Below are positions 24,282 to 47,279 of a stretch of 64,000 bases of DNA, piece after piece (position 1 is the stretch's first letter; each line of letters starts with the position of its first letter). Position numbers and translations under genes: made by a program. The notes beneath the pieces were generated by a model. The model did not search any database and was not told the origin of the DNA. It saw only the letters and a list, made by a program, of their open reading frames with translations. Location: the sequence record MN850564.1. One strand, given 5' to 3'. This DNA is from Escherichia phage humlepung.

Positions 24282-24785
24282 TCAACTTAGTTTTGCAAAC
24301 TCTCCGTGGAGTTTAATAGCAGCTTCACAGTAAGCTTTATGGGCTTCTTCTGGTGTGTCAAATAAACCAAGTGATGTCCTTTTACCTCTGCATGTTATAG
24401 CTGCCCTCCACTTATTGCAGTCTTTAAAGTAATGTACACCCTTGTAACCTGATTTGTTAGTCGTCTGCTTTACCCTATTTTGAGCATTTCCGTATTTATC
24501 AGTCTCCCTAAGATTAGAAATGTGATTATTACTTCTGTTACCATCAATGTGGTCTATCATCTTAGTGGGTTTGTAACCATGTTCGAACCACCAAACGAGG
24601 TGATGAATTTTTATTACGACATCTTTGAATTTAAGTACTTTGTAACCGTAAGCATCAGCACCTCCTGCAATCTGCCCAGCTTTAGCTTGTCTATTCCTGT
24701 CATACTTGTTGTAGAAGACCCCTTTGTCGGGGTCGTAAATAAAATTATCCTTGTAGTCTTGAAGTGTTAGTGTACGGCGTACCAT
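24282..24785 (-). CDS. HNH homing endonuclease with AP2-like DNA-binding domain
   Basis: IDHIDGNRSNNHISNLRE (HNH) plus YKGVHYFKDCNKWRAAI...LGLFDTPEEAHKAY (AP2-like); start overlaps the 3-prime end of the polymerase gene. Confidence 0.6.
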   Translation of the reverse strand: MVRRTLTLQDYKDNFIYDPDKGVFYNKYDRNRQAKAGQIAGGADAYGYKVLKFKDVVIKIHHLVWWFEHGYKPTKMIDHIDGNRSNNHISNLRETDKYGNAQNRVKQTTNKSGYKGVHYFKDCNKWRAAITCRGKRTSLGLFDTPEEAHKAYCEAAIKLHGEFAKLS

Positions 24786-33272: not shown

Positions 33273-33290
33273 TCTCTAAAAGTTACTTTA

Positions 33291-33319
33291 AAGCCCTGTA
33301 CTTAGTATGGGGCTTTTTC
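33291..33319 (+). terminator. putative terminator
   Basis: AAGCCC...GGGCTT hairpin followed by T-run. Confidence 0.45.
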
Positions 33320-33334
33320 ATATGGAGAGCCATA

Positions 33335-34375
33335 ATGGAGAAGTACACATTAACAAAGCTTCCCGATTCAGTTACACATGTTTTTATTGACTCTGACAGT
33401 ATTGCCTATAAAGGTGCTTGTGTAGTTGAGAAAGCAAAGTATAAATATGTCAATAAACTCACAGCAGAAGAGTCTGAGCCATTTGATAATGCGAAAGATG
33501 CTGCAAGATGGTTAGCAGACCAGAGAATCCTTGTGGAAGAGCTTGGCCTGACATTTAATGAAGATGAATGGGAAAGGCAGACTTGGAAAGAAGCTAAGAG
33601 TGAAAAAGAAGCTATCATGGCTACTCAACAGGTTCTTCAGGAATGGCTTAAGGTTGTTGGTAAAGAGAGAATTTGGGTAGGTTATCTAACAGAGAAAGGT
33701 GTGCATAAGCATAAAGACATTAAAGGTCTTGAGCACCAATATCAAGGTAACCGTAAAGATGCTGTCACACCAACACACTTAGTTGCTTGTCGTGAGTATC
33801 TTCTGTCAAGACCAGAGTTCAAACTAATTCTTGATGGATTTGAAGCCGATTCTATCGTTATTGCTAAAGCTGAAAAGATGGGTAAAAAGGCTGCCTTGAT
33901 GAGTATTGATAAAGACCTTCGTCAAGCTGAAGGGACTTACTGCATTGATATGACCTATGAAAAGTCACCTTTGATTTTCATTGCTGACAACAACGTAGGT
34001 GAAATTTGGGATTGCCCAATAAAATCGACACCAAAAGCTAAGAAGACAGTTGGGGTAGGTTTTAAATTTCTTTGTTACCAAGCTGTGGCTGGTGATAATG
34101 CTGATAATTATTTTGGTTTAAAGGGCGTTGGTAAGGCTACTGTAATGAAAGCACTTGAAGGTAAAACCACCTACAAAGAGTGTCTTGATGCAATTTATGA
34201 GCTTTATGCTAAGAAAGAGTCATATACTTATGTCTCGTGGGATGGCCAAACAATTACCAGAACACCTTTAGAGTTAATGCAGCAACACTTTTTCTTAGCT
34301 TATCAGGAAAGAAACAAGAAAGACGATTTCACTTTTAAGAAATATAATTGGGAGCCGTGTATGAATGAAGATTAA
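33335..34375 (+). CDS. 5-prime-3-prime exonuclease / flap endonuclease
   Basis: 346 aa; H3TH-like AGDNADNYFGLKGVGKATVMKAL; acidic metal-binding N-terminus. Confidence 0.6.
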   Translation: MEKYTLTKLPDSVTHVFIDSDSIAYKGACVVEKAKYKYVNKLTAEESEPFDNAKDAARWLADQRILVEELGLTFNEDEWERQTWKEAKSEKEAIMATQQVLQEWLKVVGKERIWVGYLTEKGVHKHKDIKGLEHQYQGNRKDAVTPTHLVACREYLLSRPEFKLILDGFEADSIVIAKAEKMGKKAALMSIDKDLRQAEGTYCIDMTYEKSPLIFIADNNVGEIWDCPIKSTPKAKKTVGVGFKFLCYQAVAGDNADNYFGLKGVGKATVMKALEGKTTYKECLDAIYELYAKKESYTYVSWDGQTITRTPLELMQQHFFLAYQERNKKDDFTFKKYNWEPCMNED

Positions 34376-34862
34376 AGGATTTGGCAATTGCCCTACCTAT
34401 GGTCATTGGGTATCTTTATGTGGGGAAGTTGACCCCACTAAACATTTTGGTTTTGTCTATTTAGTGTACTGCAAAAAGACTGGACAGTATTATTTGGGTA
34501 AGAAACAGTTTAATAGCGTGACCAAAAGAAAAGTTGCTGGTAAGACTCGGAAGAAGATAGTCACTAAGGAAAGTGATTGGCTGACTTACGAGACTTCTTC
34601 TGAGTATATCAAAAAAGATATTGAGAGCTTTGGAAAAGAATCTTTTGACTTTTACATTATTCAGACCTACTACACAAAAGGTGGCCTAGTCTATGGTGAA
34701 GCAAACCTTCAACATAAATTCGATGTAATGACAAAAAGGATTGACTCGAAGCTCAGACTCTTCTACAATGCCAATATTGCAGCAATTAAGTTTATTACTA
34801 AAGAAACTTATGAAGATGCTGAAAAAAGAATCCATAAGGTAATGAAAGCAAATTGTGCTTGA
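34365..34862 (+). CDS. GIY-YIG homing endonuclease (putative)
   Basis: FGFVYLVYCKKTGQYYLGKKQF GIY-YIG-like motif; 165 aa; start overlaps exonuclease gene end. Confidence 0.5.
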   Translation: MKIKGFGNCPTYGHWVSLCGEVDPTKHFGFVYLVYCKKTGQYYLGKKQFNSVTKRKVAGKTRKKIVTKESDWLTYETSSEYIKKDIESFGKESFDFYIIQTYYTKGGLVYGEANLQHKFDVMTKRIDSKLRLFYNANIAAIKFITKETYEDAEKRIHKVMKANCA

Positions 34863-34883
34863 TAACTATTGAGAGAGAATAAA

Positions 34884-35132
34884 ATGTTTAACAAAAGTAA
34901 AGCTGTGAGTCATGTAGCAAAAGTTGACAGCAAGATTGAAGAACTTGAGCGCATCCTTGCAAATGCTAGAGAGTCAATAATTAAAGAAGTTGAAGCTGTT
35001 GAGTCTCAAATGCAGCACCTAATGCTTAAACGTCAAGAGCTACGTGAACATCTAGAATATATTGAAACACGAGAGCTAAAGGTTAACAAATATTTTAAGG
35101 AGTCCGAATGTTTAACTCAAGAGAATCAGTAA
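34884..35132 (+). CDS. small coiled-coil protein
   Basis: ATG 34884 (track start 34869 is TTG); 82 aa. Confidence 0.45.
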   Translation: MFNKSKAVSHVAKVDSKIEELERILANARESIIKEVEAVESQMQHLMLKRQELREHLEYIETRELKVNKYFKESECLTQENQ

Positions 35133-35863
35133 AAAACTGGAACCTTCGTTGTGGAAACACTCAAAAGCAACCTTACAGTGATGAGTATTGGGAATCTTTA
35201 AAATCTCAATCTCTGTGTATGCTTGAAGAAGCAAAAGAGCTTGTAAAAGCAATTGAAGAGAAAGACCCCATTGAGACACTGGATGCTCAGGCAGATTTGC
35301 AATATGTTCTTGACGGCTTGATTTATCTGTCACAACATGACCATAACGGTGCTATGAAAGCTGTTTGCCGTAATAATGACCTGAAGTACACAGATGACTA
35401 TGAAGAAGCTTTAAAACGTCTTGCAGACATTGAAAAGCGTACTGGTCAAGAGTGTATTATCAGAATGTCAGTAGTTGATGGTAAAGAGTGGTATGCTATT
35501 GTTCGTGCAGCCGATGGGAAGATTATGAAGCAATCAAATCTCCCTAAAGTACAGCTTGGTGAATACATTGTAGAACTTGAAAGCCAAGAACTTTTTGTGG
35601 TAGTATCTGAGACATGCGTTATCTGCAAAGGTATTGTAGGTAGCTTAAAGGATTTGGGTGTAGATGGTTTTGTAGAAGTTAATCCAATTACCTCTAAAGC
35701 AGATAAAGACTTCTGTAAAGAGAACGGACTATGGATTGCAGATATTGTCTACTATGATGGTGAGCAGTTCCATGTAACCTCATACCCGAAACTGAATTAT
35801 GATGCTAATAACCTGAAGTGCTGGTTAAAAGGGGTTGGTTATAATGGATTCACAGAACATTAA
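35108..35863 (+). CDS. hypothetical protein with MazG-like NTP pyrophosphohydrolase N-terminal region (tentative)
   Basis: RBS AAGGAG; LEEAKELVKAIEE...ETLDAQADLQYVLDGL resembles the MazG EExxE/DxxxD pattern; 251 aa. Confidence 0.35.
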   Translation: MFNSRESVKNWNLRCGNTQKQPYSDEYWESLKSQSLCMLEEAKELVKAIEEKDPIETLDAQADLQYVLDGLIYLSQHDHNGAMKAVCRNNDLKYTDDYEEALKRLADIEKRTGQECIIRMSVVDGKEWYAIVRAADGKIMKQSNLPKVQLGEYIVELESQELFVVVSETCVICKGIVGSLKDLGVDGFVEVNPITSKADKDFCKENGLWIADIVYYDGEQFHVTSYPKLNYDANNLKCWLKGVGYNGFTEH

Positions 35864-36167
35864 TAAAGAGGGTGTGGCTCAGAAGAGCCACTTCTCAAAC
35901 TACAATATTTCTATGACGGTGTTTATGAATGACCCGTTACTAGAAAAATATGGTGAGACTCCAGATACACTTCTGGACAATGAACAAGTTTTAAAAGCAG
36001 TCCTGTACAAATACGGTATTGATATTGAGAAAGAGTATTCTTTTGAAATCTGCCAACACAGAAACACTTTTGGTAAAGTTGTGATGGCTCCACTCTTTAT
36101 GGGCGTAGAAAGGACTGACTATGGCTGGTTGTATCTGAAAAGAAACTTGGAGAAATACCGTGTCTAA
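35844..36167 (+). CDS. hypothetical protein
   Basis: ATG 35844 (track start TTG 35835); 107 aa. Confidence 0.4.
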   Translation: MDSQNINKEGVAQKSHFSNYNISMTVFMNDPLLEKYGETPDTLLDNEQVLKAVLYKYGIDIEKEYSFEICQHRNTFGKVVMAPLFMGVERTDYGWLYLKRNLEKYRV

Positions 36168-36495
36168 AGCAAAAAAGCTATCTTATGATGACATTATCTC
36201 AGGTGCTAAGTTAGGTGTTGATAGTATCGGACAAGATGTTAAGCACGGAGACACAGTCATGTACTGTGATGACCGAAGAGGTAGAAGTGCAATCTTGTTT
36301 GGAAGAATTGTTTGCAAGATGAGAGGTAATTACGTTGTTGCAGACATGGATGTGAACGTTACACAAAAACTTGAAACAATTATGGATGCTAGCGCACCAT
36401 CATGGTTCCTAAATTGTATGCACACCTCGTCAGTCACAAAAGTAAGTGATAAGTTTTACGATATGTGGCAGAATGAGCAAATTTTCAAGATTTAA
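36160..36495 (+). CDS. hypothetical protein (GTG start)
   Basis: GTG 36160 preceded by GGAG; no in-frame ATG until codon 34. Confidence 0.4.
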   Translation: MSKAKKLSYDDIISGAKLGVDSIGQDVKHGDTVMYCDDRRGRSAILFGRIVCKMRGNYVVADMDVNVTQKLETIMDASAPSWFLNCMHTSSVTKVSDKFYDMWQNEQIFKI

Positions 36496-36501
36496 ACTAT
36501 G

Positions 36502-36525
36502 GAGCCTCTTCGGAGGCTCTTTTCA
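36502..36525 (+). terminator. rho-independent terminator
   Basis: GAGCCTC-TTCG-GAGGCTC followed by TTTT. Confidence 0.6.
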
Positions 36526-36541
36526 TCTGTAGGATTCAAAA

Positions 36542-38776
36542 ATGATTAAGACAATTAAAAAATCAAACGGTACAGTAGTAAGCTTTGACCCAGAAAGACT
36601 GAATAAGTGGGCATCATGGGCAGATAAACGTGGGATTATCTGGTCAGAAGTCACTATGGAAGCCATGAAACGTGTCTATGAGGGTTGCACTACAAAAGAG
36701 ATGCACCAAGCCATGATTGATGTTTGTGTTGATAAACAAACTCAAGAGTACTCAGATATGGCTGGACGACTGCTTTTGGGTATTATCTACAAAGAAGCCT
36801 TTGGAGGCTTTACTAAGGTTCCTACGCTGGTTACCTTCGTTAAAAATATGGAGAGAGCAGGACTTTGGGAGAAGATGGATTATTCACAGGAAGAGCTTGA
36901 ATACCTGCAAGGTTACATCGTACACTCAAAAGATATCTCTTACGGTTATGCAGTCTTGAAACAGTTCAGAGACAAGTATGGTATCCGTGATATTAAAACG
37001 GGAAGACTTTTTGAGTCACCACAATTTATGTTTATGGGTATGGCTATGAAAGCTTTTGAGAAGCAACCAAAGCACCGTAGACTGCAAGATGTTATCAAGC
37101 TGTACACTTATCTATCTGACCTGAAGATTAATGCTCCCACACCTTATTTAAACGGTTTAAGAGCTACTAAATCAGGTTATGCGTCATGCTGTTTGATTAA
37201 GGCGAATGATACTGCTGAATCTCTAGGTATTGCTGCAAAGGTTGCCTATGACATGACCACAAAGCAAGCTGGTATTGGGATGCTGATGGAGACTCGCACT
37301 ATTGGTGATGGCATCCGTCAAAATACTATTGAACACATGGGTAAGCTGCCTTATTATAAGCTTGTACGTTCATCTGTAGAGGCAAACAAACAGAAGAGTC
37401 GTGGTGGTTCAGCTAATAACTTCTACACTGCTCTAGACCCGCAGATTGAAGATTTACTGCGTTTGAAGCACCCTACAACGGTTCCTTCTAAACGTATTAA
37501 TGAGATGGACTACTCATTCGGCACAAACGATTATTTCTGGCAGTGTGTTCAGTATGATACAGATTGGTTGCTATTCTCTTACAAAGATGCACCAAAACTC
37601 TATGACATGTTCTACACAGCATCTGCTGATGAGTTTGCTATGGCAGTTGGTCACGCAGTACATACAGGAGTTAAGCACAGACGAGTAAAGGCTCGTGAAA
37701 TTGCTAAGCTGTTTATTCAACAGCGTTATGCTACAGGTCGTGTGTATCCATTCTTCACTAACAATGCAAACACACATACACCATTTAAAGAACCATTGAA
37801 GATGTCAAATCTTTGTATGGAAATTGTATTGCCAGTGTATGGTTTTGAGAAAGAGACAGACCTTTACAGAGACGATGCTGTGAAAGAGGATGGTGAGGTG
37901 GCTCTTTGCTTCCTAGCTAGTTTGGTTGCAGGGAGAATTTCAGAAGATGAATACGCTGACGTTGCTTATTATGCTCTTGCAATGGTTGACTCCGTTATTG
38001 ACCTTATGGATTATCCGTATCCGTCGATGCGTAACCATGTTCAGAAGCGTCGTTCTGTTGGGATTGGCCTTACAAATGTGGCTCATTACCTTGCGAAGAA
38101 CTACGTGAACTACTCTTCACGAGCAGGTAAAACGAAACTTCATGAACTTGCAGAGATGCACTCTTACTATCTGCATGAAGCCTCTCTGAGACTTGCTAAA
38201 GAGCGTGGCGTTCCAGAGTACATGAAGTTCACTAAGTATCCTGAAGGCTGGGTTCCTCCAAAGACAGCTAACAAGAAGATTGATGAAAAGCATGATGCAA
38301 AACTACGATATGATTGGGATGACTTAGCACAACGTATCAAAGAAAATGGTGGAATCCGAAACTCTGTATTAGAAGCTTACATGCCTAATGAGAGTTCTTC
38401 ACTAGCAACTAATACGACAAACGGCTTGTACCCAATTCGTGACTTTATTTTAACTAAAAAGTCTGCAACCGGTAACGTACTGTTTATTGTTCCAGATTAT
38501 GAAGAACTGAAGTATGTCTATGAAATTGCTTGGGATATTGACACCTTTGATATGATTGATTGTTATGCAATTGTTCAAAAGTTCACTGGTCAGGCTATCT
38601 CTTCAGACTTCTATGTTGACTATGCAAAGTCTAAGAAGGTATCATTGGCTCAAGCTTTGAAGTACATGATTTATGCCAACTCGGTAGGTATGAAAACCAT
38701 GTACTACCTTAACAGTCGCATTGGTGTAGGTAAATCTGCACTGCAAGATGCTTATTGCGAGGGTTGTGGTGTTTAG
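36542..38776 (+). CDS. nrdA: ribonucleotide reductase class I large subunit
   Basis: 744 aa; N-terminal ATP-cone (IKKSNGTVVSFDPERL); C-terminal CEGCG; followed by nrdB. Confidence 0.85.
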   Translation: MIKTIKKSNGTVVSFDPERLNKWASWADKRGIIWSEVTMEAMKRVYEGCTTKEMHQAMIDVCVDKQTQEYSDMAGRLLLGIIYKEAFGGFTKVPTLVTFVKNMERAGLWEKMDYSQEELEYLQGYIVHSKDISYGYAVLKQFRDKYGIRDIKTGRLFESPQFMFMGMAMKAFEKQPKHRRLQDVIKLYTYLSDLKINAPTPYLNGLRATKSGYASCCLIKANDTAESLGIAAKVAYDMTTKQAGIGMLMETRTIGDGIRQNTIEHMGKLPYYKLVRSSVEANKQKSRGGSANNFYTALDPQIEDLLRLKHPTTVPSKRINEMDYSFGTNDYFWQCVQYDTDWLLFSYKDAPKLYDMFYTASADEFAMAVGHAVHTGVKHRRVKAREIAKLFIQQRYATGRVYPFFTNNANTHTPFKEPLKMSNLCMEIVLPVYGFEKETDLYRDDAVKEDGEVALCFLASLVAGRISEDEYADVAYYALAMVDSVIDLMDYPYPSMRNHVQKRRSVGIGLTNVAHYLAKNYVNYSSRAGKTKLHELAEMHSYYLHEASLRLAKERGVPEYMKFTKYPEGWVPPKTANKKIDEKHDAKLRYDWDDLAQRIKENGGIRNSVLEAYMPNESSSLATNTTNGLYPIRDFILTKKSATGNVLFIVPDYEELKYVYEIAWDIDTFDMIDCYAIVQKFTGQAISSDFYVDYAKSKKVSLAQALKYMIYANSVGMKTMYYLNSRIGVGKSALQDAYCEGCGV

Positions 38777-38831
38777 TTTTAATAACTATGAGGGTCGTAA
38801 AAGACCCTCTAAAAATAACTTTGGAGAGACC

Positions 38832-39089
38832 ATGAAAGATTTAATAGAAAAACATGAGCGACCTATATACTTGCTCCACAAGCCTCGGAAAACGATGTAC
38901 TATGTGAGTAGCACAGACATGATGATAAAACAAAAGGATGACTCATGGGTTGCTGGTATCTCTTACATCTCTACAGCAGATGGTAAAATCTACGCAAGAC
39001 CTTATGAGATGTTCAATGAAGAAAATTGGGAAGTTTTAGACAGAAAACAAGCCTTAGAAATGATAAAGAAAGGAGAAATCACACTATGA
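38832..39089 (+). CDS. small hypothetical protein
   Basis: ATG 38832 after GGAGAG; 85 aa; stop overlaps nrdB start (ATGA). Confidence 0.4.
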   Translation: MKDLIEKHERPIYLLHKPRKTMYYVSSTDMMIKQKDDSWVAGISYISTADGKIYARPYEMFNEENWEVLDRKQALEMIKKGEITL

Positions 39090-40159
39090 TTAACCAGCAC
39101 CCAATCTTTTTAGGTGGTGAGAGAAAAACTTTTGACTCACTTAATAAGCACTACCCAAAAATCTTTGAACTTTATAAACAACAAAAAGCACAAGACTGGT
39201 CAGAAGATGAGTTCCCTTTTGAGCAATCACGTCTTGATTTTGAGAGTGTGCCAGCATCAATGTCAGGTGTAATGCTTGAGATTCTTAAGTGGCAGTGGGA
39301 AGCAGATACCCAAGTTGCTAAGAGCTTGGCATTCGCCTTTGCACCATTCATCTCTGATGATATTTATGCAACTGCAATTATGAAGCAGTCTGAGATTGAA
39401 AACCTACATGCTCTAACTTACTCGGAGATTGTAAGGCAATGTATTAAAAATCCTGAAACAATCTTAGATGAGATTAACCAGAACGTTGCTGTACAAGACC
39501 GATTAAAAACTGTGAATCGTGTTCTTGAAGAATTACTAGATGAAGGTATAAACTACCGACTGAGTTATGTCCGTGGCTCACTTCTGGACAAAGACCCTTT
39601 ACACTTCCATAAAGTGATTCTGAAAGGTCTATTTGCAGTGACTGCACTGGAAGGTATATCTTTTATGGCATCCTTTGCATGTACTTTTGCACTTGATGCT
39701 CAAGATAAATTTCAGGGTATTGCTCAAGCGGTACAGAAAATTATGCTTGACGAAATCCTTCACACTAAAATTGATATTGAAGTTTTAAAAGAAACTTTAA
39801 GAGATGATGAGTGGCAGAAAGCTTTTCAACAAATTCTTCCAGAGATTAAAGTAATCTTAGATGAAGTAGTTGAAAGTGAAGAGAAATGGTCGTATTATAT
39901 CTTCTCCGAAGGACGTGCTGTAGTTGGCTTAAATACAAAGCTTCTTCATGAGTGGGTTTACTATAATGCTGCCCCGCTGTATGACATGTTTGGCATTCAA
40001 AGAGATTTTGTAGCTCCTAAAGAACCACCTTTGAAGTACATGATTAAGAAGATGGAAATTGATAAAGAGCAGAATGCTAATCAGGAGCAACAGAACGGTG
40101 CGTACCTGTTGAATACTGTTGTAGACGATTTGAATAGTGGATTTTTAGAGGTTCCTTAA
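39086..40159 (+). CDS. nrdB: ribonucleotide reductase class I small subunit
   Basis: 357 aa from ATG 39086 (RBS AAAGGAGAAA); ferritin-like helical protein adjacent to nrdA. Confidence 0.75.
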   Translation: MINQHPIFLGGERKTFDSLNKHYPKIFELYKQQKAQDWSEDEFPFEQSRLDFESVPASMSGVMLEILKWQWEADTQVAKSLAFAFAPFISDDIYATAIMKQSEIENLHALTYSEIVRQCIKNPETILDEINQNVAVQDRLKTVNRVLEELLDEGINYRLSYVRGSLLDKDPLHFHKVILKGLFAVTALEGISFMASFACTFALDAQDKFQGIAQAVQKIMLDEILHTKIDIEVLKETLRDDEWQKAFQQILPEIKVILDEVVESEEKWSYYIFSEGRAVVGLNTKLLHEWVYYNAAPLYDMFGIQRDFVAPKEPPLKYMIKKMEIDKEQNANQEQQNGAYLLNTVVDDLNSGFLEVP

Positions 40160-40401
40160 TGACTTATGTAATTTACTCCAAAACTGGATGCCCTCAGTGT
40201 GAGACTGCAAAGAATTTTGCAAAAGCTCGTGGTATTGACCACGTTGTGAGAATGTTAGGGCAGGATTATGAGCTATCAGACCTGATGGATATTGCACAGA
40301 TGCCAGTTCGTCAGATGCCATTCATCATGAAAACTGATGGACAAAACCTAAAACCTGTTGGTACGCTACAGAATTTTATGGCAGAGGTGAATAATGCTTA
40401 A
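40159..40401 (+). CDS. nrdH: glutaredoxin-like protein
   Basis: 80 aa; CPQC redox motif at N-terminus; directly after nrdB. Confidence 0.65.
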   Translation: MTYVIYSKTGCPQCETAKNFAKARGIDHVVRMLGQDYELSDLMDIAQMPVRQMPFIMKTDGQNLKPVGTLQNFMAEVNNA

Positions 40402-40600
40402 ACGCCTTTGGGAAGGTTTGGTTGTTGATGCACCAGCTATTGTGATTGGTATGCTTATTGTTAACCTATTTACTGACTTTGAACAAGGTTCATTGTTTGG
40501 AGCCATGTTACTATGGGTTATCTTTGAAATATTAGAGATACAGTTAGGTATCACTGAAAAACTAAGAGAACTCTTTGCGAAGTTTTCTAAAAAGATTTAA
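40394..40600 (+). CDS. small membrane protein
   Basis: 68 aa; hydrophobic core; RBS GAGGTGA. Confidence 0.4.
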   Translation: MLKRLWEGLVVDAPAIVIGMLIVNLFTDFEQGSLFGAMLLWVIFEILEIQLGITEKLRELFAKFSKKI

Positions 40601-40606
40601 AATGAA

Positions 40607-40629
40607 AGGGTCTCTTCGGAGACCTTTTT
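40607..40629 (+). terminator. rho-independent terminator
   Basis: GGGTCTC-TTCG-GAGACC followed by TTTTT. Confidence 0.6.
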
Positions 40630-40648
40630 AGCATGTAAAGGGGCAATA

Positions 40649-42793
40649 ATGAACAAAGTACAGATTATTAAAAAGAATGGCTCACTCGAAGAACCTGATA
40701 TCAAAAAAGTTTTAGCAGCAGTCACAAAGTCAGCTAATAGGGTTGGGTATAAAGAACTTCCATCAGATGTTACCCAAGCTCTTGAGTCAGCATTTATGAG
40801 GATTCTGGTAAAATCTACTAAGCAGAATAATTTACTCATTTCAGTAAATGATATTCACAGTATTGTTGAAGGTGCTTTGGCAGAAGTCAATCACGAGATT
40901 TATGAGTCTTACTCAACATATAGAAATTACCGTAAAGAGGTTGCTCAAAATTGGGATGAACTCTACCAGAAGACCAAAGATACACTCTTCTTAGGTGACC
41001 GAGAAAACGCTAATTTTGACAGCAGTTTAATTTCTACAAAAGGCTCAATTATTCGTGGTTACCTGACTAAAGAAATCTTTAAACAGTACCACCTAACACC
41101 AGAGGAACTTGAAGCCATTGAAAAAGGGTTTATCTATATCCATGATTTAAGAGACCTGATTTTTGGTGGTATCAACTGTTGCTTGTTTGACATTGGTAAA
41201 GTGCTGAAAGGTGGCTTTGAAATGTCTGGCATTGAATACTGTGAACCGAAGTCTGTACTGTCAGCCTTACAGGTTATTGGTGATGTAGTTCTTTCAGCAA
41301 CTGCACAGCAATTTGGTGGCTTTACTTTAGCAGAGATTGATAAGGTACTTGTACCGTATGCTAAGAAGTCTCTACGTTACCATGCTGAAAAAGCAACAGC
41401 TTATGGTATTCCTAAAGAACATTACCACAACTATGTCATGGAGCAGCTACAGATTGAATTAACTCAAGGTTTTCAGTCTCTTGAAATGAAGCTCAATACT
41501 GTGCCTTGTAGCCGTGGTGATTTTGCATTCACAACTTTGACATTCGGGTTACTTGACTCAGATATGTCTAATGAAGATAACCGACTGCAATACATGATTG
41601 CAAGCACTCTCCTAGATGTTCGTATGAATGGACAAGGTAAGAGCAAGAAGCCTGTTGTATTCCCTAAACTGGTTTATATTTATGACCAGAAGAGACATAA
41701 TGAGAATATCTGTCAAGGCCACCTGTACAGTAAAGCTATTGAGTGTTGCTCTAAAGCTATGTATCCAGATTTCTTAAGTGTATCTGGACATGGTGCTGTA
41801 GCAGAGGCTTTTGAGCATTCTGGTAAGGTAATTTCACCGATGGGTTGCAGAGCCTTCTTATCTCCATATCTTAATGAGGAAGGAGAAGAGTTCTACGTTG
41901 GTCGTGCTAACATTGGTGCTGTATCTTTGAACTTACCAATGATTTACCAGTATTCTAAAGAGAATGGTTTAGATTTCTGGAAAGAGCTTGATAAGTACCT
42001 AGAGATGATTCGCAGCTTCCACAAGAAACGTTACGAAATGATTGCTAATATGCCAGCAAGTTCTAACCCTCTTGCATTCACACAGGGTGGTCTGTACAAA
42101 GGGAATAAGAAACCTACTGACAGGGTTGGTTGGGATATTGTGAAGTCCTTCACAGCTTCTTTTGGGGTTACTGCGCTTGATGAGCTATCTGTTCTTGCTG
42201 AAGGTAAACGACTTCATGAAGTCGGAAGCTGTAGTTTTGCATACGATGTTCTGGAATACATCAACATGAAAACTGAAGAGTTTAAAAATGAAGATGGCTT
42301 CTTATATGCAGTCTATGGCACTCCAGCAGAATCACTTTGTGGAACTCAGCTAAAACAGTTCAGAGATATGTTTGGCGTTATTAAAGGTGTCTCTGACAAG
42401 GAATACTTTACAAACAGTTTCCATATGAATGTTGCAGCAGACATCTCACCATTTGAGAAGCAGGACTTAGAAGAGCCATTCTTCCATATCTGTAGAGGTG
42501 GTAGAATCCAGTATGTAAGGGTAGCTAACCCAGAAAACTTAACAGCACTTAAAAGTTGTATTACCAGAGGGATGTTGAAGGGTTTTTATCAGGGACTTAA
42601 CTTTGACTTAGCAATCTGTGAACATTGTGGTAACAGACCAAAGGCTGATGTTGAAGAATGTGAGGTTTGCCATTCACATGATATCTCTGTGATTAACAGG
42701 GTGTGTGGGTACTTGTCATTCACAAAAATTAAAGGTCAGTCTCGAATGAATGACGCTAAGATGGCAGAAATTAAGGATAGGGTTTCTATGTAG
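40649..42793 (+). CDS. nrdD: anaerobic ribonucleotide reductase (class III)
   Basis: 714 aa; C-terminal glycyl-radical motif RVCGYL and zinc-ribbon CEHCG...CEVCHS. Confidence 0.85.
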   Translation: MNKVQIIKKNGSLEEPDIKKVLAAVTKSANRVGYKELPSDVTQALESAFMRILVKSTKQNNLLISVNDIHSIVEGALAEVNHEIYESYSTYRNYRKEVAQNWDELYQKTKDTLFLGDRENANFDSSLISTKGSIIRGYLTKEIFKQYHLTPEELEAIEKGFIYIHDLRDLIFGGINCCLFDIGKVLKGGFEMSGIEYCEPKSVLSALQVIGDVVLSATAQQFGGFTLAEIDKVLVPYAKKSLRYHAEKATAYGIPKEHYHNYVMEQLQIELTQGFQSLEMKLNTVPCSRGDFAFTTLTFGLLDSDMSNEDNRLQYMIASTLLDVRMNGQGKSKKPVVFPKLVYIYDQKRHNENICQGHLYSKAIECCSKAMYPDFLSVSGHGAVAEAFEHSGKVISPMGCRAFLSPYLNEEGEEFYVGRANIGAVSLNLPMIYQYSKENGLDFWKELDKYLEMIRSFHKKRYEMIANMPASSNPLAFTQGGLYKGNKKPTDRVGWDIVKSFTASFGVTALDELSVLAEGKRLHEVGSCSFAYDVLEYINMKTEEFKNEDGFLYAVYGTPAESLCGTQLKQFRDMFGVIKGVSDKEYFTNSFHMNVAADISPFEKQDLEEPFFHICRGGRIQYVRVANPENLTALKSCITRGMLKGFYQGLNFDLAICEHCGNRPKADVEECEVCHSHDISVINRVCGYLSFTKIKGQSRMNDAKMAEIKDRVSM

Positions 42794-42800
42794 AATACAA

Positions 42801-43358
42801 ATGAATTACGAACTAATATATAATGCAATTATTAAGAAGGCACATTCTGAAAGGGGTGTGCCTCTTACATACTACAAATGTCAAGGTAAGGGTTATGAAA
42901 GACACCATATCATACCAGTGTGTCTAGGTGGCGATAAAATTAGTGGAGATAATATTGCTCTACTTACACCTAGAGAACATTATATAGCTCATAAATTACT
43001 GGTTAAGATGTATCCAAACAACCACAAGTTATGGTTTGCATGGAACAGACTAGCTCATGATGGCCTAGATAGGAAAATATCATCCAGAGACTATGAAAAG
43101 GTAAGGGCTTTGAACTCGAAAGCTTTATCTATTGTGAATAAAGGTAGGGTTTTCACTGAAGAACATCGAAGACGATTAGGAGAATCTCAAATAGATAATA
43201 CAAAATCAAAAGGTTGTAAAAGGTCTATAGAAACAAGGAAGAGGATGTCAGAAGCCGGAAAAAAGCCAAAGAAAAAGAAAACTTGCCCTCATTGTGGTAT
43301 GACTGGTGGTGCTGGTAACATGACTCGATATCATTTTGACAATTGTAAGAAAAAATAA
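42801..43358 (+). CDS. HNH homing endonuclease
   Basis: YERHHIIPVCLGGDKISGDNIALLTPREHYIAH; start at ATG 42801; inserted between nrdD and nrdG. Confidence 0.6.
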   Translation: MNYELIYNAIIKKAHSERGVPLTYYKCQGKGYERHHIIPVCLGGDKISGDNIALLTPREHYIAHKLLVKMYPNNHKLWFAWNRLAHDGLDRKISSRDYEKVRALNSKALSIVNKGRVFTEEHRRRLGESQIDNTKSKGCKRSIETRKRMSEAGKKPKKKKTCPHCGMTGGAGNMTRYHFDNCKKK

Positions 43359-43378
43359 CCTTATGTAAAACTTGACAA

Positions 43379-43417
43379 GGTGATGTGGGTCTTGATAGGC
43401 TTACATCACCTTTTTTA
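43379..43417 (+). terminator. rho-independent terminator
   Basis: GGTGATGT...ACATCACC hairpin followed by T6. Confidence 0.55.
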
Positions 43418-43430
43418 TTGGATGTTAGAT

Positions 43431-43544
43431 ATGGCAGAAAGTATTATTGGATTGTTCATAGGTTCTGTCTTGCTAGGGTTCTTTTTAGGACTCTCTTATT
43501 GTGAATTGAGAGATAAGTTAAAATGTTTAAGATATCAAAAACGA
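43431..43544 (+). CDS. small hydrophobic peptide (37 aa, below ORF-track cutoff)
   Basis: MAESIIGLFIGSVLLGFFLGLSYCELRDKLKCLRYQKR; ATG 43431; TGATG overlap with next ORF. Confidence 0.3.
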
Positions 43545-43723
43545 TGATATACATACTCCACATTCTAATCTTCTTCTTTGGGGTTAGTGTTATGGTATGG
43601 GGTTTTTCAGACCCACAATGGAGTTTATCATATCATGGTCAGATGGATTTATGGTCATGCTTCAAACCATTTTTAGGGTTAGCTATAGCATTCAGTGCAT
43701 TACCAACTAAGGTGAAATTATGA
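43523..43723 (+). CDS. small membrane protein
   Basis: 66 aa with two hydrophobic segments; alternative start ATG 43544. Confidence 0.4.
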   Translation: MFKISKTMIYILHILIFFFGVSVMVWGFSDPQWSLSYHGQMDLWSCFKPFLGLAIAFSALPTKVKL

Positions 43724-44115
43724 TTAAGTTAAACCAAAAACAGTTAGAGTGGATTAAAGATTACGCCTCAGAGTGTGGTTCTTGCGAAAAGAATCACGTA
43801 AGATACTCAACATTCCATACGACCTTCACATTGTATATCGGCGACAATGTTCTAAGTGATTCTGTAGAAGATGGTGTAGCATTGCCTAATGAATTGCTTG
43901 ACAAATTAGCTGTAGTCACTGGAACTTGGTCTGAAGAAGACGGTCATGAATTATCTGACAATGTTGTCTTCTACAGTCTTGAAAATATTATGAATCCAGA
44001 GTACATTATGCTAATGACTTGTGCACAAGATTGTGTGCCATTACAAAACTTCATTAAAGAGCACTGTGAAGAATTTATTACTAAACAGGTTCCCTGTCAG
44101 GTAGTGTTTGGATGA
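43720..44115 (+). CDS. hypothetical Cys-rich protein
   Basis: 131 aa; RBS AAGGTGA. Confidence 0.45.
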   Translation: MIKLNQKQLEWIKDYASECGSCEKNHVRYSTFHTTFTLYIGDNVLSDSVEDGVALPNELLDKLAVVTGTWSEEDGHELSDNVVFYSLENIMNPEYIMLMTCAQDCVPLQNFIKEHCEEFITKQVPCQVVFG

Positions 44116-44174
44116 GCAAAACAATTCGAAGAAAAGGTTTACAGAACTTTTATATGTATTGGTGAGGTAACTAG

Positions 44175-44660
44175 ATGAATTACATGGAGATTAGACCATT
44201 TGACACAGCTAATGGTGAAGGGGTTCGTGTAAGCCTCTTCGTAGCTGGTTGTAAGCATCACTGTGAAGGCTGCTTTAACAGGGAGTCTTGGAAGTTTAAT
44301 GCTGGTAAGGTATTTACTTATGCAAACCTCTACGGAATCATCCAGCTAATGGGTGATAATGCTGTCAGTGGTTTGTCAATACTTGGTGGAGAACCTCTGG
44401 ATGATAGAAATATTCAAGAGGTTACAGACATATGCAAACGTGTTAAAACTGTTTACCCAGAGAAGACTATATGGCTCTGGACAGGTTTTCAGTTACACGA
44501 AAAAATTCACCTAGATGTAATGAAATATGTTGACGTGGTGATTGATGGTAAGTATGATTCATCTAAACCAACAGTTAAACCATATCGTGGTTCTGATAAC
44601 CAAAACCTCTGGAGAAAAGAGTATGGGTGGCAAGGCGATTGTCAATGGCGAGCAGAGTGA
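44175..44660 (+). CDS. nrdG: anaerobic ribonucleotide reductase activating protein (radical SAM)
   Basis: CKHHCEGCFN CxxxCxxC radical-SAM cluster motif near N-terminus; 161 aa. Confidence 0.8.
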   Translation: MNYMEIRPFDTANGEGVRVSLFVAGCKHHCEGCFNRESWKFNAGKVFTYANLYGIIQLMGDNAVSGLSILGGEPLDDRNIQEVTDICKRVKTVYPEKTIWLWTGFQLHEKIHLDVMKYVDVVIDGKYDSSKPTVKPYRGSDNQNLWRKEYGWQGDCQWRAE

Positions 44661-44898
44661 TTATTCTGGCAAGTGGACTTATGACATAAACAAGTTAGAT
44701 GCCTGGATGATTTATACGAGAGAAAAATTTGGTGCACGTTCATTATGTGCTCTTGCAACGATGGTGAAGAACGTTACCTTTGACATTCATGAATCTGATA
44801 AGTTTGGAGACTTCTACAGGATTCAAAACATCAGAGAAGGTATAACTCCAATCGGTATCACTGAAGAAGAGCTTCATAAGTTCTGTATCAAACTTTAA
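44623..44898 (+). CDS. hypothetical protein
   Basis: ATG 44623 after GGAG; overlaps nrdG 3-prime end in another frame. Confidence 0.35.
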   Translation: MGGKAIVNGEQSDYSGKWTYDINKLDAWMIYTREKFGARSLCALATMVKNVTFDIHESDKFGDFYRIQNIREGITPIGITEEELHKFCIKL

Positions 44899-44913
44899 TG
44901 AGTGAGACTAAAA

Positions 44914-45180
44914 ATGGGAATTTTAGGTAATATGAAAGCTGGCTTCTTGAAGGCACTGGCAAAAGCAGCAGCAATCATTTCTATGACTGGAAAGCAGGTT
45001 GGTGTGGATGCTTCAGCAATTGCACAGGTTCTTGCAAGCCAAATTGAACAGCAGCCTTACATCCACGTTGGACGTGGTAAAGGTGGTAAAAAACAAGCAC
45101 ATCGACCAACTGGTGCAGCAGCTATTAAACGAGCAGCTAAGAAAGCTCGTAACCGTAAACGTAACAAGAAGGCTAAATAA
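44914..45180 (+). CDS. small basic protein (Lys/Arg-rich C-terminus)
   Basis: ATG 44914 (track start 44902 is GTG); C-terminus KKARNRKRNKKAK. Confidence 0.4.
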   Translation: MGILGNMKAGFLKALAKAAAIISMTGKQVGVDASAIAQVLASQIEQQPYIHVGRGKGGKKQAHRPTGAAAIKRAAKKARNRKRNKKAK

Positions 45181-45182
45181 TC

Positions 45183-45503
45183 ATGAGCAAAGTTTATAAC
45201 ACTCGCAAATTACAGATTTTCGTACTGTGCCAGTTTATGGCTAAAGAATACAACTTCTACTATTGTGGTACAGGTTTTATTAGTGATGATGATGGCTCAT
45301 ACCTCCCATTCAAAGAAGCTGTAAAACTCTTTAATGAAGAGAAAAGCTCTAAGAAAGATATTGAAAAGGTTAAGCTAACTTACAGCAAGAAAGATAAGAA
45401 GATTATCTGCCTAGATAACTTTGTGAAAGTTACTGGAGAAGCAAAAGAGTTTATGGATGAGAGTGAGATTTCATTCACAAGCATCTTGAAAGTAGCTCAG
45501 TAA
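45183..45503 (+). CDS. hypothetical protein
   Basis: 106 aa; coupled start. Confidence 0.45.
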   Translation: MSKVYNTRKLQIFVLCQFMAKEYNFYYCGTGFISDDDGSYLPFKEAVKLFNEEKSSKKDIEKVKLTYSKKDKKIICLDNFVKVTGEAKEFMDESEISFTSILKVAQ

Positions 45504-45516
45504 ACAGATACTATAA

Positions 45517-45542
45517 GGGAACTGTAAAGGTTCCCTTTTTAT
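45517..45542 (+). terminator. rho-independent terminator
   Basis: GGGAAC-TGTAAAG-GTTCCC followed by T5. Confidence 0.55.
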
Positions 45543-45554
45543 TTTGGAGATAAT

Positions 45555-46070
45555 ATGTACCTGTCAAACCTGAAACGTTCTGCTGCAATGTCAGTGTTAA
45601 GACTCAGCTTTGAGGAACGTCAAGAGTTCATTGACTCCCACCAATATGACCCTTCAAACTCTAATCACATGATTCTCTGGAATCGTGATAGCACTCGTGA
45701 AAGAGCACTATTCCGCTACTACCCACACTACACCATAGACAACCTGTATGAATGTTTTGTTGTGAAGAACACCATTACAGTACTCAATAAACTTTGCAGA
45801 TACACAGGTAGTCAATCCTTCACATTAGGCCACCACAAACCTGTTACAAAGGGTGGTGAGCATCACTGTGCAAACTGGTTTATCCAGACTAAACTTGATA
45901 ACCAGAAGCAAGGAGATAACCTTCTAAGCACTCCTAAGATGACCTATGAAGAGCAAGAGAAATATATCAAAAATAATATGCCAGATGTGCTTGACAACAA
46001 CTATACAGATTTGGCAATATCTCTCCTGTTGAAGTTCGAGACAGTTTATAGGGCGACTTACAATGGCTAA
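45555..46070 (+). CDS. HNH endonuclease (putative homing endonuclease)
   Basis: LGHHKPVTKGGEHHCANW...N HNH-like motif; RBS GGAGA. Confidence 0.5.
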   Translation: MYLSNLKRSAAMSVLRLSFEERQEFIDSHQYDPSNSNHMILWNRDSTRERALFRYYPHYTIDNLYECFVVKNTITVLNKLCRYTGSQSFTLGHHKPVTKGGEHHCANWFIQTKLDNQKQGDNLLSTPKMTYEEQEKYIKNNMPDVLDNNYTDLAISLLLKFETVYRATYNG

Positions 46071-46341
46071 AGAAAAGTGGGAGATTTTACCACTAGTTAG
46101 TGAAGGCGGTAATGGTTGTGAAATGTACATGATACGTGGTCATGTTCCAGAACCAATTGCACTTGAGATGGTAAACAACTTTACAGATGGCTCTTACAAA
46201 GACTTAGGGGAGCCAACTATAAAGCAGCAATGGGTAAAGCCTGTACCAGACAGCACAGGTAACTGTAGTGTACTTTATCACGTTGTAGACCCTGCAAAAT
46301 GTAAATCTGCAATGGCAGTAACAAACGTAACTTTTGATTGA
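46063..46341 (+). CDS. hypothetical protein
   Basis: 92 aa; overlapping start. Confidence 0.45.
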   Translation: MAKEKWEILPLVSEGGNGCEMYMIRGHVPEPIALEMVNNFTDGSYKDLGEPTIKQQWVKPVPDSTGNCSVLYHVVDPAKCKSAMAVTNVTFD

Positions 46342-46352
46342 GAGAGAAAACT

Positions 46353-47234
46353 ATGAAAACTGTTATTGAAGCCGTCGTCACCGCACAAGAGAAATTCTTC
46401 CACACAGAAAAATTTAATATCATTCAATTCCCATCTGGAGAAATTGGTGGAAACTTCTCTGAAGATTTTGTTAAGTTTACTGAGCGTAATGCTGGTAAGA
46501 TTGATAATGTTATAATTACTGTACAGGGATATGACAAGGATACACTGTTTGCATTAGCTTTGGCTAAGGATGCCGTTGACAGTCTTGTTCCCCAGAAATC
46601 AGCGATGAAAACCGTTGTTTTCGGGTTCTTACCAAATGCTCGATATGACCGCCACATGTTCAAAGGTGATGCAGCAGCACTGAAAGTCTTTGCCAACCTA
46701 GTTAATGCAATGGGCTTTGATGCAGTATGTGCTCTTGACCCTCACAGTAATGTTGCAGAAAACTTATTTAAGTGTTTTCAGAGCATGAAGCAAAAAGATG
46801 TGGCAGTACACTTTGCAAGTGACCCACGCATTGATTTCTTGGTAGCCCCAGATGCAGGTGCAGCTAAGAAGACTGAAGATGCCGCTAAAGAGGTGGATAA
46901 ACCATATATCACAATGTCTAAGGTGCGCAATCTTAAGACTGGAGAAATCACTGGTATGCGAATCCTTGACGATGTTGATTTGACCGATAAAACTGTCATG
47001 ATTCTTGATGATATCTGTGATGGTGGTCGAACCTTCGTAGAGGCAGCTAAACACCTACGTGAAGCAGGTGCAAAACGTGTGGAACTCTATGTAACTCATG
47101 GTATTTTCTCTAAAGGTGTTGAAAACTTACTTGACAATGGTATTGACCATATCTACACTACAAACACTTTAGGTGAAGCTAAAGACCGTGGCTTAACACA
47201 TTACGCCCAAGTTACTGTAGCAACCATTGATTGA
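46353..47234 (+). CDS. ribose-phosphate pyrophosphokinase-like enzyme (candidate ADP-ribose pyrophosphokinase of NARP1)
   Basis: PRTase-type PRPP/ribose-phosphate binding loop VMILDDICDGGRTF; start ATG 46353 after GAGAGAGAAAA (track start TTG). Confidence 0.7.
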   Translation: MKTVIEAVVTAQEKFFHTEKFNIIQFPSGEIGGNFSEDFVKFTERNAGKIDNVIITVQGYDKDTLFALALAKDAVDSLVPQKSAMKTVVFGFLPNARYDRHMFKGDAAALKVFANLVNAMGFDAVCALDPHSNVAENLFKCFQSMKQKDVAVHFASDPRIDFLVAPDAGAAKKTEDAAKEVDKPYITMSKVRNLKTGEITGMRILDDVDLTDKTVMILDDICDGGRTFVEAAKHLREAGAKRVELYVTHGIFSKGVENLLDNGIDHIYTTNTLGEAKDRGLTHYAQVTVATID

Positions 47235-47243
47235 AACTTTATA

Positions 47244-47265
47244 GGGGCTTGAAAGCCCCATTTTG
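47244..47265 (+). terminator. putative terminator/attenuator between the Prs-like and NAMPT-like genes
   Basis: GGGGCT-TGAA-AGCCCC followed by ATTTTG. Confidence 0.4.
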
Positions 47266-47279
47266 AGAGAGATTAAAAG

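What the first reader, a model, noticed from the sequence alone, without database searches (positions are those of the whole stretch)
34365..46070. Three further freestanding homing endonucleases interleaved with nucleotide-metabolism genes
A GIY-YIG-like gene (34365..34862) follows the exonuclease gene, an HNH gene (42801..43358) is inserted between nrdD and nrdG, and another HNH-like gene (45555..46070) sits before the NARP1-like pair. Insertion next to highly conserved enzyme genes is typical of selfish homing elements and marks likely recombination hot spots.
Basis: partly seen in the sequence, partly recalled or inferred. Interest (0 to 1): 0.4.

Follow-up and report, generated by a model that had tools for sequence, protein, structure and literature searches.

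The report
One mobile endonuclease, two core nucleases
In this Felix O1-like phage only the HNH gene after nrdD behaves as a selfish homing endonuclease, while the GIY-YIG gene and the HNH-like gene are conserved single-copy genes found in essentially all relatives, so the finding is largely ordinary and only one-third right.

Summary
The window is a Felixounavirus (Felix O1-like, Ounavirinae) genome. All three ORFs exist at the stated coordinates and carry the stated nuclease folds.

- **G2 (42801-43358)** is a Mob-type HNH freestanding homing endonuclease. It lies in a clean 575-bp cassette (42794-43368) between the nrdD stop codon and the nrdD terminator. About 20% of relatives carry it. 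It is always linked to a recoded 82-nt tract at the nrdD 3' end (42712-42793), which probably marks its target and immunity site.
- **G1 (34365-34862)** has a real GIY-YIG fold. It is a roughly 150-165 aa stand-alone domain, overlaps the exonuclease gene by 11 nt, and has dN/dS 0.03. It is present in 29/29 and about 261/262 relatives, including Erwinia phages. The mobile element at that junction is a different HNH_3 gene, which the window lacks.
- **G3 (45555-46070)** is a divergent HNH-like protein present in 29/29 relatives, with dN/dS 0.12. It sits upstream of the NARP1 pair even in genera that lack nrdDG. It is lost or replaced in only two records.

Homing endonuclease polymorphism in Felix O1-like phages is already published. 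Interest is low.

The parts
33335..34375 (+). 5'-3' exonuclease (FEN/RNaseH-like) gene; its last 11 nt overlap the G1 start
   Evidence: phrog_107 exonuclease, E=8e-66. Weak Pfam 5_3_exonuc matches.
34365..34862 (+). G1: stand-alone GIY-YIG nuclease-domain protein (165 aa). Core gene of Ounavirinae, often mis-annotated as 'NAD synthetase'.
40649..42793 (+). nrdD (anaerobic class III ribonucleotide reductase). Intact and intron-less in the window.
   Evidence: Pfam NRDD 1.7e-114. It is split at codon ~400-403 in 10/29 relatives.
42712..42793 (+). HEG-linked recoded tract at the nrdD 3' end (encodes ..LSFTKIKGQS..). Predicted immunity allele; the G2 target in HEG-minus genomes is predicted to lie at the equivalent of 42712-42742.
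   Evidence: 24 HEG-associated substitutions all fall in these 82 nt, none in the preceding 818 nt. The S-F / Q changes are shared with the Suspvirus HEG+ phage. The tract is 99.6% identical among HEG+ phages, against 95.5% for the upstream flank.
42794..43368 (+). 575-bp homing-endonuclease cassette, absent from HEG-minus relatives. It is flanked by the 7-nt near-repeat TATGTAG (42787-42793) / TATGTAA (43362-43368).
   Evidence: Pairwise BLAST against JK55. Junction sequences in 30 loci. Cassette length 574-576 bp in other HEG+ loci.
42801..43358 (+). G2: Mob-type HNH freestanding homing endonuclease (185 aa). N-terminal HNH, a weak (below-threshold) NUMOD3 match, and a C-terminal CxxC...H..C motif.
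   Evidence: phrog_655 3.4e-56. HNH motif aligned to colicin E9 / pyocin AP41. Homologous to T-even mob genes, 1041 records / 1586 places. Present in 51 of ~262 relatives.
43377..43412 (+). Intrinsic-terminator-like hairpin (16 bp stem) plus T-run. It follows the nrdD stop directly in HEG-minus phages and follows G2 in the window.
   Evidence: empty-site sequences.
44175..44660 (+). nrdG (class III RNR activase)
   Evidence: Pfam Fer4_12 1.1e-42.
45515..45537 (+). Terminator-like hairpin just upstream of G3, so G3 probably opens a new transcription unit
45555..46070 (+). G3: divergent HNH-like (H-N-N) protein (171 aa). Near-universal in Ounavirinae; overlaps the next ORF by 8 nt.
   Evidence: phrog_3500 5e-92; phrog_2214 HNH 2.4e-4. 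Motif conservation H93/N107/N116. 29/29 loci. dN/dS 0.12.
46063..46341 (+). 92-aa ORF (phrog_4726) co-deleted or co-replaced with G3 in two relatives. Not conserved outside Felixounavirus-like genera.
46338..49061 (+). Prs-like (Adps, 46338-47234) and NAMPT-like (Namat, 47280-49061) pair, i.e. the NARP1 NAD+ reconstitution operon
   Evidence: Pfam. NARP1 was defined in the Felixounavirus Bas63, genes 79-80 (bioRxiv 10.1101/2024.02.11.579819).

Best explanation
The three genes have different status.

**G2 is a genuine freestanding Mob-type HNH homing endonuclease.**
- It is a promoter-less 575-bp cassette lodged between the nrdD stop codon and the nrdD terminator, so it is read from the nrdD transcript.
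- Inferred mechanism: in a mixed infection it nicks or cuts the nrdD 3' end of a HEG-minus phage. The predicted site lies in the codons just after the glycyl-radical motif RVCGY, in the YLGWTKIKGES region. Recombinational repair then copies the cassette from the HEG+ genome.
- The cassette's own genome is protected by the recoded 82-nt tract (YLSFTKIKGQS).

**G1 is a core, stand-alone GIY-YIG nuclease.** It overlaps the 5'-3' exonuclease gene by 11 nt, which suggests translational coupling. It most likely works in phage DNA replication, recombination or repair, or in host-DNA processing. In that sense it is an EndoII/Slx1-like housekeeping nuclease rather than a homing enzyme.

**G3 is a core, divergent HNH-like protein.** It heads the transcription unit that contains NARP1. 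Its substrate is unknown.

**Shown:** domain identities, presence/absence frequencies, cassette boundaries, the linked tract, and purifying selection.
**Inferred:** the cleavage site and immunity, and the cellular roles of G1 and G3.
For: **G2**
- Present in 51 of ~262 relatives and 6 of 29 IMG/VR loci. It always starts 8-11 nt after the nrdD stop, including in the Suspvirus phiSUSP1 at 76% aa identity.
- The empty site is exactly nrdD-stop|TTGACA-hairpin-Trun.
- All 24 HEG-linked substitutions fall in the last 82 nt of nrdD. The GW->SF and E/T->Q changes are shared across two genera.
- The tract is 99.6% identical among HEG+ phages, while the upstream flank is 95.5% and nrdG 91.7%.
- 93 records carry the tract but only 51 carry the gene. 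That fits a homing cycle with HEG loss or tract-only conversion.
- The VpaE1 copy is frameshifted.
- The family is multi-copy and sits in variable contexts in T-even and other phages. T4 mob biology is reviewed in PMC2988022, including mobC between nrdG and nrdD.

**G1**
- Universal presence; dN/dS 0.03; one copy per genome.
- The domain occupies residues 21-138 of 165 aa, and related longer HEG families have profiles of 356-574 positions, so there is no room for a DNA-binding domain.
- Distant homologues of ~150 aa sit at a fixed position upstream of a DnaG-like primase and a PD-(D/E)XK nuclease in another phage group.
- The polymorphic element at the exo|G1 junction is a different HNH_3+AP2 gene, present in 12 of 28 relatives.

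**G3**
- Present in 29/29 loci. The synteny G3 - small ORF - Prs - NAMPT is kept in Erwinia phages that lack nrdDG.
- dN/dS 0.12. Single copy, 429 records / 429 places.
- It also holds a fixed position in Stephanstirmvirinae.
Against: - No cleavage or homing experiment exists for any of the three proteins.
- The 82-nt tract could be hitch-hiking variation from the original donor rather than an immunity determinant.
- About 41 records have the tract without the gene, so tract and gene are separable.
- G1 and G3 could in principle be homing endonucleases that reached fixation in the whole subfamily and still act against outside lineages.
- G3 plus the next ORF are missing in GE_vB_7A (an 'UNVERIFIED' record) and replaced by a split adenine methyltransferase in SP4 SHa-2019. 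G3 is therefore dispensable and its slot is occasionally exchanged.
- The HNH assignment of G3 is only moderately supported.
Confidence: 0.8

Rival explanations
1. All three are freestanding homing endonucleases. G1 and G3 have simply swept to fixation in Ounavirinae and persist as selfish elements.
For: - The G1 catalytic domain is most similar to the SegE / I-TevI type.
- G3 has an HNH-like motif.
- The region is heavily colonised by HEGs in relatives.
- The G3 slot is replaced or deleted in two records.
Against: - No empty site for G1 was found in ~290 records spanning several genera down to ~68% nt identity.
- G1 has dN/dS 0.03, as low as exo and nrdD. A fixed HEG without targets is expected to decay.
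- G1 lacks any DNA-binding domain.
- G1 and G3 are strictly single-copy and at a fixed locus. The true HEG family of G2 is multi-copy and context-variable.
Confidence: 0.1
2. G2 is a decaying, no-longer-mobile remnant. The linked nrdD tract is only historical hitch-hiking from a single ancient insertion.
For: - The VpaE1 copy is frameshifted.
- HEG copies have diverged to 92.6% identity, so the insertion is not very recent.
- The tract occurs without the HEG in ~41 records.
- No Shine-Dalgarno sequence is obvious before the ATG.
Against: - The window copy is full length with an intact HH..N..H motif, and dN/dS is ~0.1 (few pairs).
- Its distribution is scattered over lineages whose flanks are only 92-96% identical, while the tract stays 99.6% identical with a sharp, shared left boundary.
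- The same residues are changed in a second genus.
Confidence: 0.1

Closest known systems
T4 Mob-family freestanding HNH homing endonucleases (MobA-E; mobC lies between nrdG and nrdD, mobE between nrdA and nrdB)
   Same: - N-terminal HNH domain with a distinct C-terminal region.
- Promoter-less cassette placed in an RNR-gene intergenic region and transcribed from the upstream gene.
- Sporadic distribution among relatives.
- Sequence homology: 30-40% aa identity to mob genes of T-even phages, and the same PHROG, phrog_655.
   Different: - The host is an Ounavirinae genome.
- The protein is shorter (185 aa, against 260 aa for the best T4 match).
- The inferred target is only ~50-80 bp from the insertion site. 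Freestanding T4 endonucleases often cut hundreds of bp away (PMC2988022).
- Activity has not been tested.
T4 SegE / I-TevI-type GIY-YIG homing endonucleases
   Different: - G1 has no DNA-binding domain.
- It is universally present, single-copy, overlaps the exonuclease gene and is strongly constrained.
- It has no empty sites.
T4 endonuclease II (DenA) and Slx1/UvrC-type housekeeping GIY-YIG nucleases
   Different: - Similarity to these is weaker than to I-TevI.
- G1 carries a basic beta-hairpin insertion (residues ~50-69) and an invariant N-terminal YGHW motif.
- No biochemical data exist.
HNH / HNH_5 (McrA-like) superfamily
   Same: G3 keeps the H...P...GG...N...N spacing and a predicted beta-beta-alpha element. 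A G3 family profile hits a protein with three Pfam HNH/HNH_5 domains.
   Different: - No Zn-binding cysteines.
- Below Pfam thresholds, and no significant structural match.
- A narrow family: 18 clusters among 1.84 billion representatives.

Membership tests
Freestanding homing endonuclease gene - G2 | Nuclease domain of a homing-endonuclease family with intact catalytic motif | tested here: met
   The HH-N-H motif aligns to colicin E9 / pyocin AP41 HNH. phrog_655 3.4e-56.
Freestanding homing endonuclease gene - G2 | Intergenic, not inside an intron or intein | tested here: met
   The gene starts 8 nt after the nrdD stop. No Rfam intron was found in 33000-47500.
Freestanding homing endonuclease gene - G2 | Presence/absence polymorphism at the same site among close relatives | tested here: met
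   Present in 51 of ~262 GenBank records and 6 of 29 IMG/VR loci. Empty sites are clean.
Freestanding homing endonuclease gene - G2 | Sequence difference between HEG+ and HEG- alleles next to the insertion (immunity / co-conversion) | tested here: met
   24 linked substitutions are confined to the last 82 nt of nrdD.
Freestanding homing endonuclease gene - G2 | Site-specific cleavage of the HEG-minus allele and super-Mendelian inheritance | not testable with these tools
   This needs in vitro cleavage assays and phage crosses.
Freestanding homing endonuclease gene - G1 | Presence/absence polymorphism among close relatives | tested here: not met
   About 261/262 GenBank records, 29/29 IMG/VR loci, and Erwinia phages too.
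Seg-type GIY-YIG homing endonuclease - G1 | GIY-YIG catalytic domain | tested here: met
Seg-type GIY-YIG homing endonuclease - G1 | C-terminal DNA-binding/specificity domain | tested here: not met
   The domain spans residues 21-138 of 165. The remainder is one helix. Its own family profile is 148 positions, against 356-574 for HEG PHROGs.
NAD synthetase (database label for G1) | Similarity to NAD synthase fold or family | tested here: not met
   No Pfam or NCBIfam NAD-synthase hit. The structure matches GIY-YIG nucleases only.
Freestanding homing endonuclease gene - G3 | Presence/absence polymorphism among close relatives | tested here: not met
   29/29 loci and 240 records at >=80% coverage. 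Only two exceptions were seen, one of them an UNVERIFIED record.
HNH superfamily - G3 | beta-beta-alpha-Me motif with conserved His/Asn residues | tested here: inconclusive
   For: motif and predicted secondary structure fit; the family profile reaches an HNH_5 protein at 8e-5; phrog_2214 2.4e-4. Against: Pfam HNH is below cut-off and Foldseek is non-significant.

The most novel reading that the evidence does not exclude
G3 may not be a DNA nuclease at all. It could be an accessory component of phage NAD+-reconstitution loci.

- Its family sits immediately upstream of the NARP1 Adps/Namat pair throughout Ounavirinae, including genera that lack nrdDG.
- In a group of T4-like phages it lies ~2 kb downstream of a NadV-type NAMPT.

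A separate, less exotic possibility concerns G1. The G1 family, labelled 'NAD synthetase' in hundreds of records, may be an uncharacterised core replication/recombination nuclease shared by Ounavirinae, cyanomyoviruses and other phages.
Probability: 0.08. Interest if true: 0.55.

Novelty: already known. Interest (0 to 1): 0.22.

Why it matters
The practical value is corrective.

- **Annotation.** Only one of the three 'homing endonucleases' should be treated as mobile DNA when aligning, typing or engineering Felix O1-like therapeutic phages. The G1 family is mislabelled both as 'NAD synthetase' and as 'homing endonuclease' in hundreds of GenBank records.
- **A testable prediction for G2.** The analysis gives a precise recognition region: the nrdD codons just after the glycyl-radical motif. 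It also gives a natural set of sensitive, resistant-with-HEG and resistant-without-HEG alleles. These could serve as a simple system for studying intron-less homing outside the T-even phages.
- **Limits.** None of this overturns current understanding. Variable homing endonuclease content in this genus is already documented (PMC3185647, PMC4837284, PMC8300805).

Tried and rejected
- **PDB sequence searches for G1 and G3.** There were no meaningful hits. The G3 N-terminus gave a repeat-inflated match to staphylococcal protein A domains. I regard it as chance, because each individual stretch has E>1.
- **Foldseek of the G3 model against the PDB.** Nothing was significant, and the model is only pLDDT 65.
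- **NCBIfam for all three proteins.** Nothing above noise.
- **Is G3 functionally tied to NAD salvage?** Neighbourhoods supported this in Ounavirinae and in T4-like contigs. It failed in Stephanstirmvirinae, where the homologue sits next to a UvrD-type helicase with no NAMPT within 4 kb.
- **Is the small ORF after G3 a conserved partner?** It is not homologous across lineages.
- **Sandegren et al. 2005** (SegH/Hef replacing mobC/mobE) could not be read, because the paper is not held.
- **'Inactive remnants' reading for G1 and G3.** I rejected it because the catalytic motifs are invariant and dN/dS is low.


Full report
**Identity of the window.** The region 33000-47500 matches 262 phage records at 80-97% nucleotide identity. 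Nearly all are Felixounavirus or other Ounavirinae. The gene order is as follows:
- primase-helicase, then 5'-3' exonuclease (33335-34375);
- G1 (34365-34862), MazG-like, nrdA, nrdB, glutaredoxin;
- nrdD (40649-42793), G2 (42801-43358), three small ORFs;
- nrdG (44175-44660), four small ORFs;
- G3 (45555-46070), a 92-aa ORF;
- Prs-like (46338-47234) and NAMPT-like (47280-49061).

The last two genes are the NARP1 NAD+-reconstitution operon. It was first defined in the Felixounavirus Bas63 (bioRxiv 10.1101/2024.02.11.579819).

**Observation.** All three ORFs are real and carry the proposed folds.
- G2 matches phrog_655 'homing endonuclease' at 3e-56. Its ERHHIIPVCLGG...DNIALLTPREH segment aligns with the colicin E9 / pyocin HNH motif.
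- G3 is HNH-like with moderate support. For it: phrog_2214 at 2.4e-4, a conserved GH..P...GG.H..NW.IQ...N motif, a predicted beta-beta-alpha element, and a family profile that reaches a protein with three Pfam HNH/HNH_5 domains at 8e-5. Against it: no significant structural hit.

**G2 is a bona fide mobile element.**
- Only 51 records carry it at >=80% coverage, out of ~262 relatives. Only 6 of 29 IMG/VR Ounavirinae loci carry it.
- Against the HEG-minus phage JK55, the window has a clean 575-bp insertion at 42794-43368. It begins immediately after the nrdD stop codon and is bounded by TATGTAG/TATGTAA.
- In HEG-minus genomes the stop codon is followed directly by TTGACA and a 16-bp hairpin with a T-run. 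In the window this terminator-like element (43377-43412) follows G2. The cassette is therefore promoter-less and rides on the nrdD transcript, as described for several T4 mob and seg genes (PMC2988022).
- The gene occupies the same site in the Suspvirus phiSUSP1 at 76% aa identity.
- Its family is the T-even Mob family. That family is multi-copy and found in many contexts: 1041 records and 1586 places, including next to nrdA. T4 mobC itself lies between nrdG and nrdD.

**The HEG-linked tract in nrdD.** I compared 6 HEG+ and 18 HEG- Felixounavirus sequences over the last 900 nt of nrdD.
- All 24 positions strongly associated with the HEG lie in the final 82 nt (42712-42793). None lies in the 818 nt before that.
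- The tract changes NrdD from ..RVCGYLGWTKIKG(E/T)S.. to ..RVCGYLSFTKIKGQS... The same GW->SF and ->Q changes occur in the HEG+ Suspvirus but not in HEG- members of neighbouring genera.
- Among HEG+ phages the tract is 99.6% identical. The upstream nrdD flank is 95.5% identical and nrdG 91.7%.
- 93 GenBank records carry this tract but only 51 carry the gene. L017 and L028 are examples of tract-only genomes. The VpaE1 copy of G2 is frameshifted.

I infer that the recognition or cleavage site lies in the sensitive-type sequence just 3' of the glycyl-radical codons. On this reading the tract is the immunity allele, and the population shows the usual cycle of invasion, decay or loss, and resistant empty sites. 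This step is inference. Hitch-hiking from one ancestral donor is the alternative.

**G1 is not an inserted element.**
- It is found in 297 records, once each. 261 of them match at >=80% coverage, and Erwinia phages match at ~68% nt identity.
- It is found in 29 of 29 IMG/VR Ounavirinae contigs.
- In Erwinia phage Tian it overlaps the exonuclease gene just as in the window.
- dN/dS is 0.03, as low as exo and nrdD.
- Y32, Y43, G45, R62, E112, N114 and N135 are invariant down to 51% identity.
- The protein is essentially a bare GIY-YIG domain. Related PHROGs of real homing endonucleases are 356-574 positions long.
- Homologues of ~150 aa occur once per genome in ~400 cyanomyoviruses and other phages, usually labelled 'NAD synthetase'. 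In one environmental phage group they sit at a fixed position upstream of a DnaG-like primase and a PD-(D/E)XK nuclease.
- No NAD-synthase similarity exists.
- The element that really is polymorphic at the exo|G1 junction is a ~490-bp HNH_3+AP2 gene. It is present in 12 of 28 relatives and absent from the window.

**G3 is also conserved.**
- It is present in 29 of 29 loci at 74-100% aa identity and in 240 records at >=80% DNA coverage.
- It is single-copy (429 records / 429 places), with dN/dS 0.12.
- In Erwinia Kolesnikvirus, which lacks nrdD/nrdG, the order G3 - small ORF - Prs - NAMPT is retained.
- A terminator-like hairpin precedes it (45515-45537), so it probably heads the unit that contains NARP1.
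- There are two exceptions. GE_vB_7A lacks window 45591-46306. SP4 SHa-2019 has a split adenine methyltransferase in place of 45675-46235.
- I tested a link to NAD salvage. Distant homologues lie beside Prs/NAMPT in another Ounavirinae-like contig, and ~2 kb from NadV in T4-like contigs. In Stephanstirmvirinae, however, they lie next to a UvrD-type helicase with no NAMPT nearby. The small downstream ORF is not conserved either. The link remains a weak lead.

**Comparison with what is known.** Felix O1 was reported to have six HNH homing-endonuclease sequences (PMC3185647). UAB_Phi87 and others have an nrdD split by an endonuclease gene (PMC4837284). Copy number varies between Felixounavirus genomes (PMC8300805). 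G2 is already annotated as 'MobE-like HNH homing endonuclease' in VpaE1. The finding is therefore already known in kind. What this analysis adds is the separation of one mobile gene from two core genes, the exact cassette boundaries, and a predicted target/immunity tract.

**Verdict.** Interest is low (0.22).

Noticed in passing
window ~41846-41857 (nrdD codons 400-403); L003:3517-4246: In 10 of 29 relatives nrdD is split at this codon by a ~730-bp or ~305-bp insertion. In L003 the insertion matches the Rfam group I intron model (E=6e-8, below the gathering score) and is reported to carry a homing endonuclease ORF. The window has the intron-less allele. This parallels the T4 nrdD intron.
   Followed up: partly
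window 34336-34357 (exo|G1 junction); L002:1836-2351: 12 of 28 relatives carry a ~490-bp HNH_3+AP2 homing endonuclease gene between the exonuclease gene and G1. The window has the empty site, with exo and G1 overlapping by 11 nt.
   Followed up: partly
window 47234-47280 (Prs|NAMPT junction); L002:15517-16008: VpaE1 carries another HNH_3+AP2 endonuclease gene inserted inside the NARP1 operon, between the Prs-like and NAMPT-like genes. The window lacks it.
   Followed up: no
window 24291-24776, minus strand: This stretch encodes a protein 34-36% identical to the VpaE1 HNH_3 endonucleases (tblastn E 1e-18 to 1e-23).
   Followed up: no
window 44147-44150; L001:11284-11583: JK55 and VpaE1 have an extra ~300-bp ORF (weak DUF5499 match) between the phrog_4382 gene and nrdG. 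It is absent from the window. In addition, window 43435-43551 is replaced by a different 363-bp segment in JK55.
   Followed up: no
window 44542-47234: Several genes here exist as two diverged allele classes among otherwise ~95%-identical relatives. The phrog_4462 protein is ~98% or ~50% identical. The Prs-like protein is 96-100% or 77-82% identical. The phrog_5082 protein ranges from 46% to 97%. This mosaicism is consistent with a recombination-active region.
   Followed up: partly
L119:2620-3471 (Salmonella phage SP4 SHa-2019); L118 (GE_vB_7A): G3 (from nt 120) and the following 92-aa ORF are replaced by a split adenine-specific DNA methyltransferase in SP4. Both genes are deleted in the UNVERIFIED GE_vB_7A record.
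   Followed up: partly
window 34365-34862 and ~400 cyanophage records (e.g. KJ019120.1 153166-153552): The G1 family is annotated 'NAD synthetase' in hundreds of phage records. Sequence and structure show only a GIY-YIG nuclease domain, so the label appears to be a propagated error.
   Followed up: partly
window 45591-45719 (G3 residues 13-55): The G3 N-terminal helix region (LSFEERQEFIDSHQYDPSNSNHM) resembles the [24 protein letters not shown] motif of staphylococcal protein A domains. The whole-sequence E-value (1e-9) is inflated by the repeats, and each stretch alone has E>1. It is probably chance.
   Followed up: partly
L124, L129, L132 (T4-like contigs); L126: Distant G3 homologues lie ~2 kb downstream of a NadV-type NAMPT in T4-like phages and next to Prs/NAMPT in an Ounavirinae-like contig. 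In Stephanstirmvirinae (L130, L131) they lie next to a UvrD-type helicase instead.
   Followed up: partly
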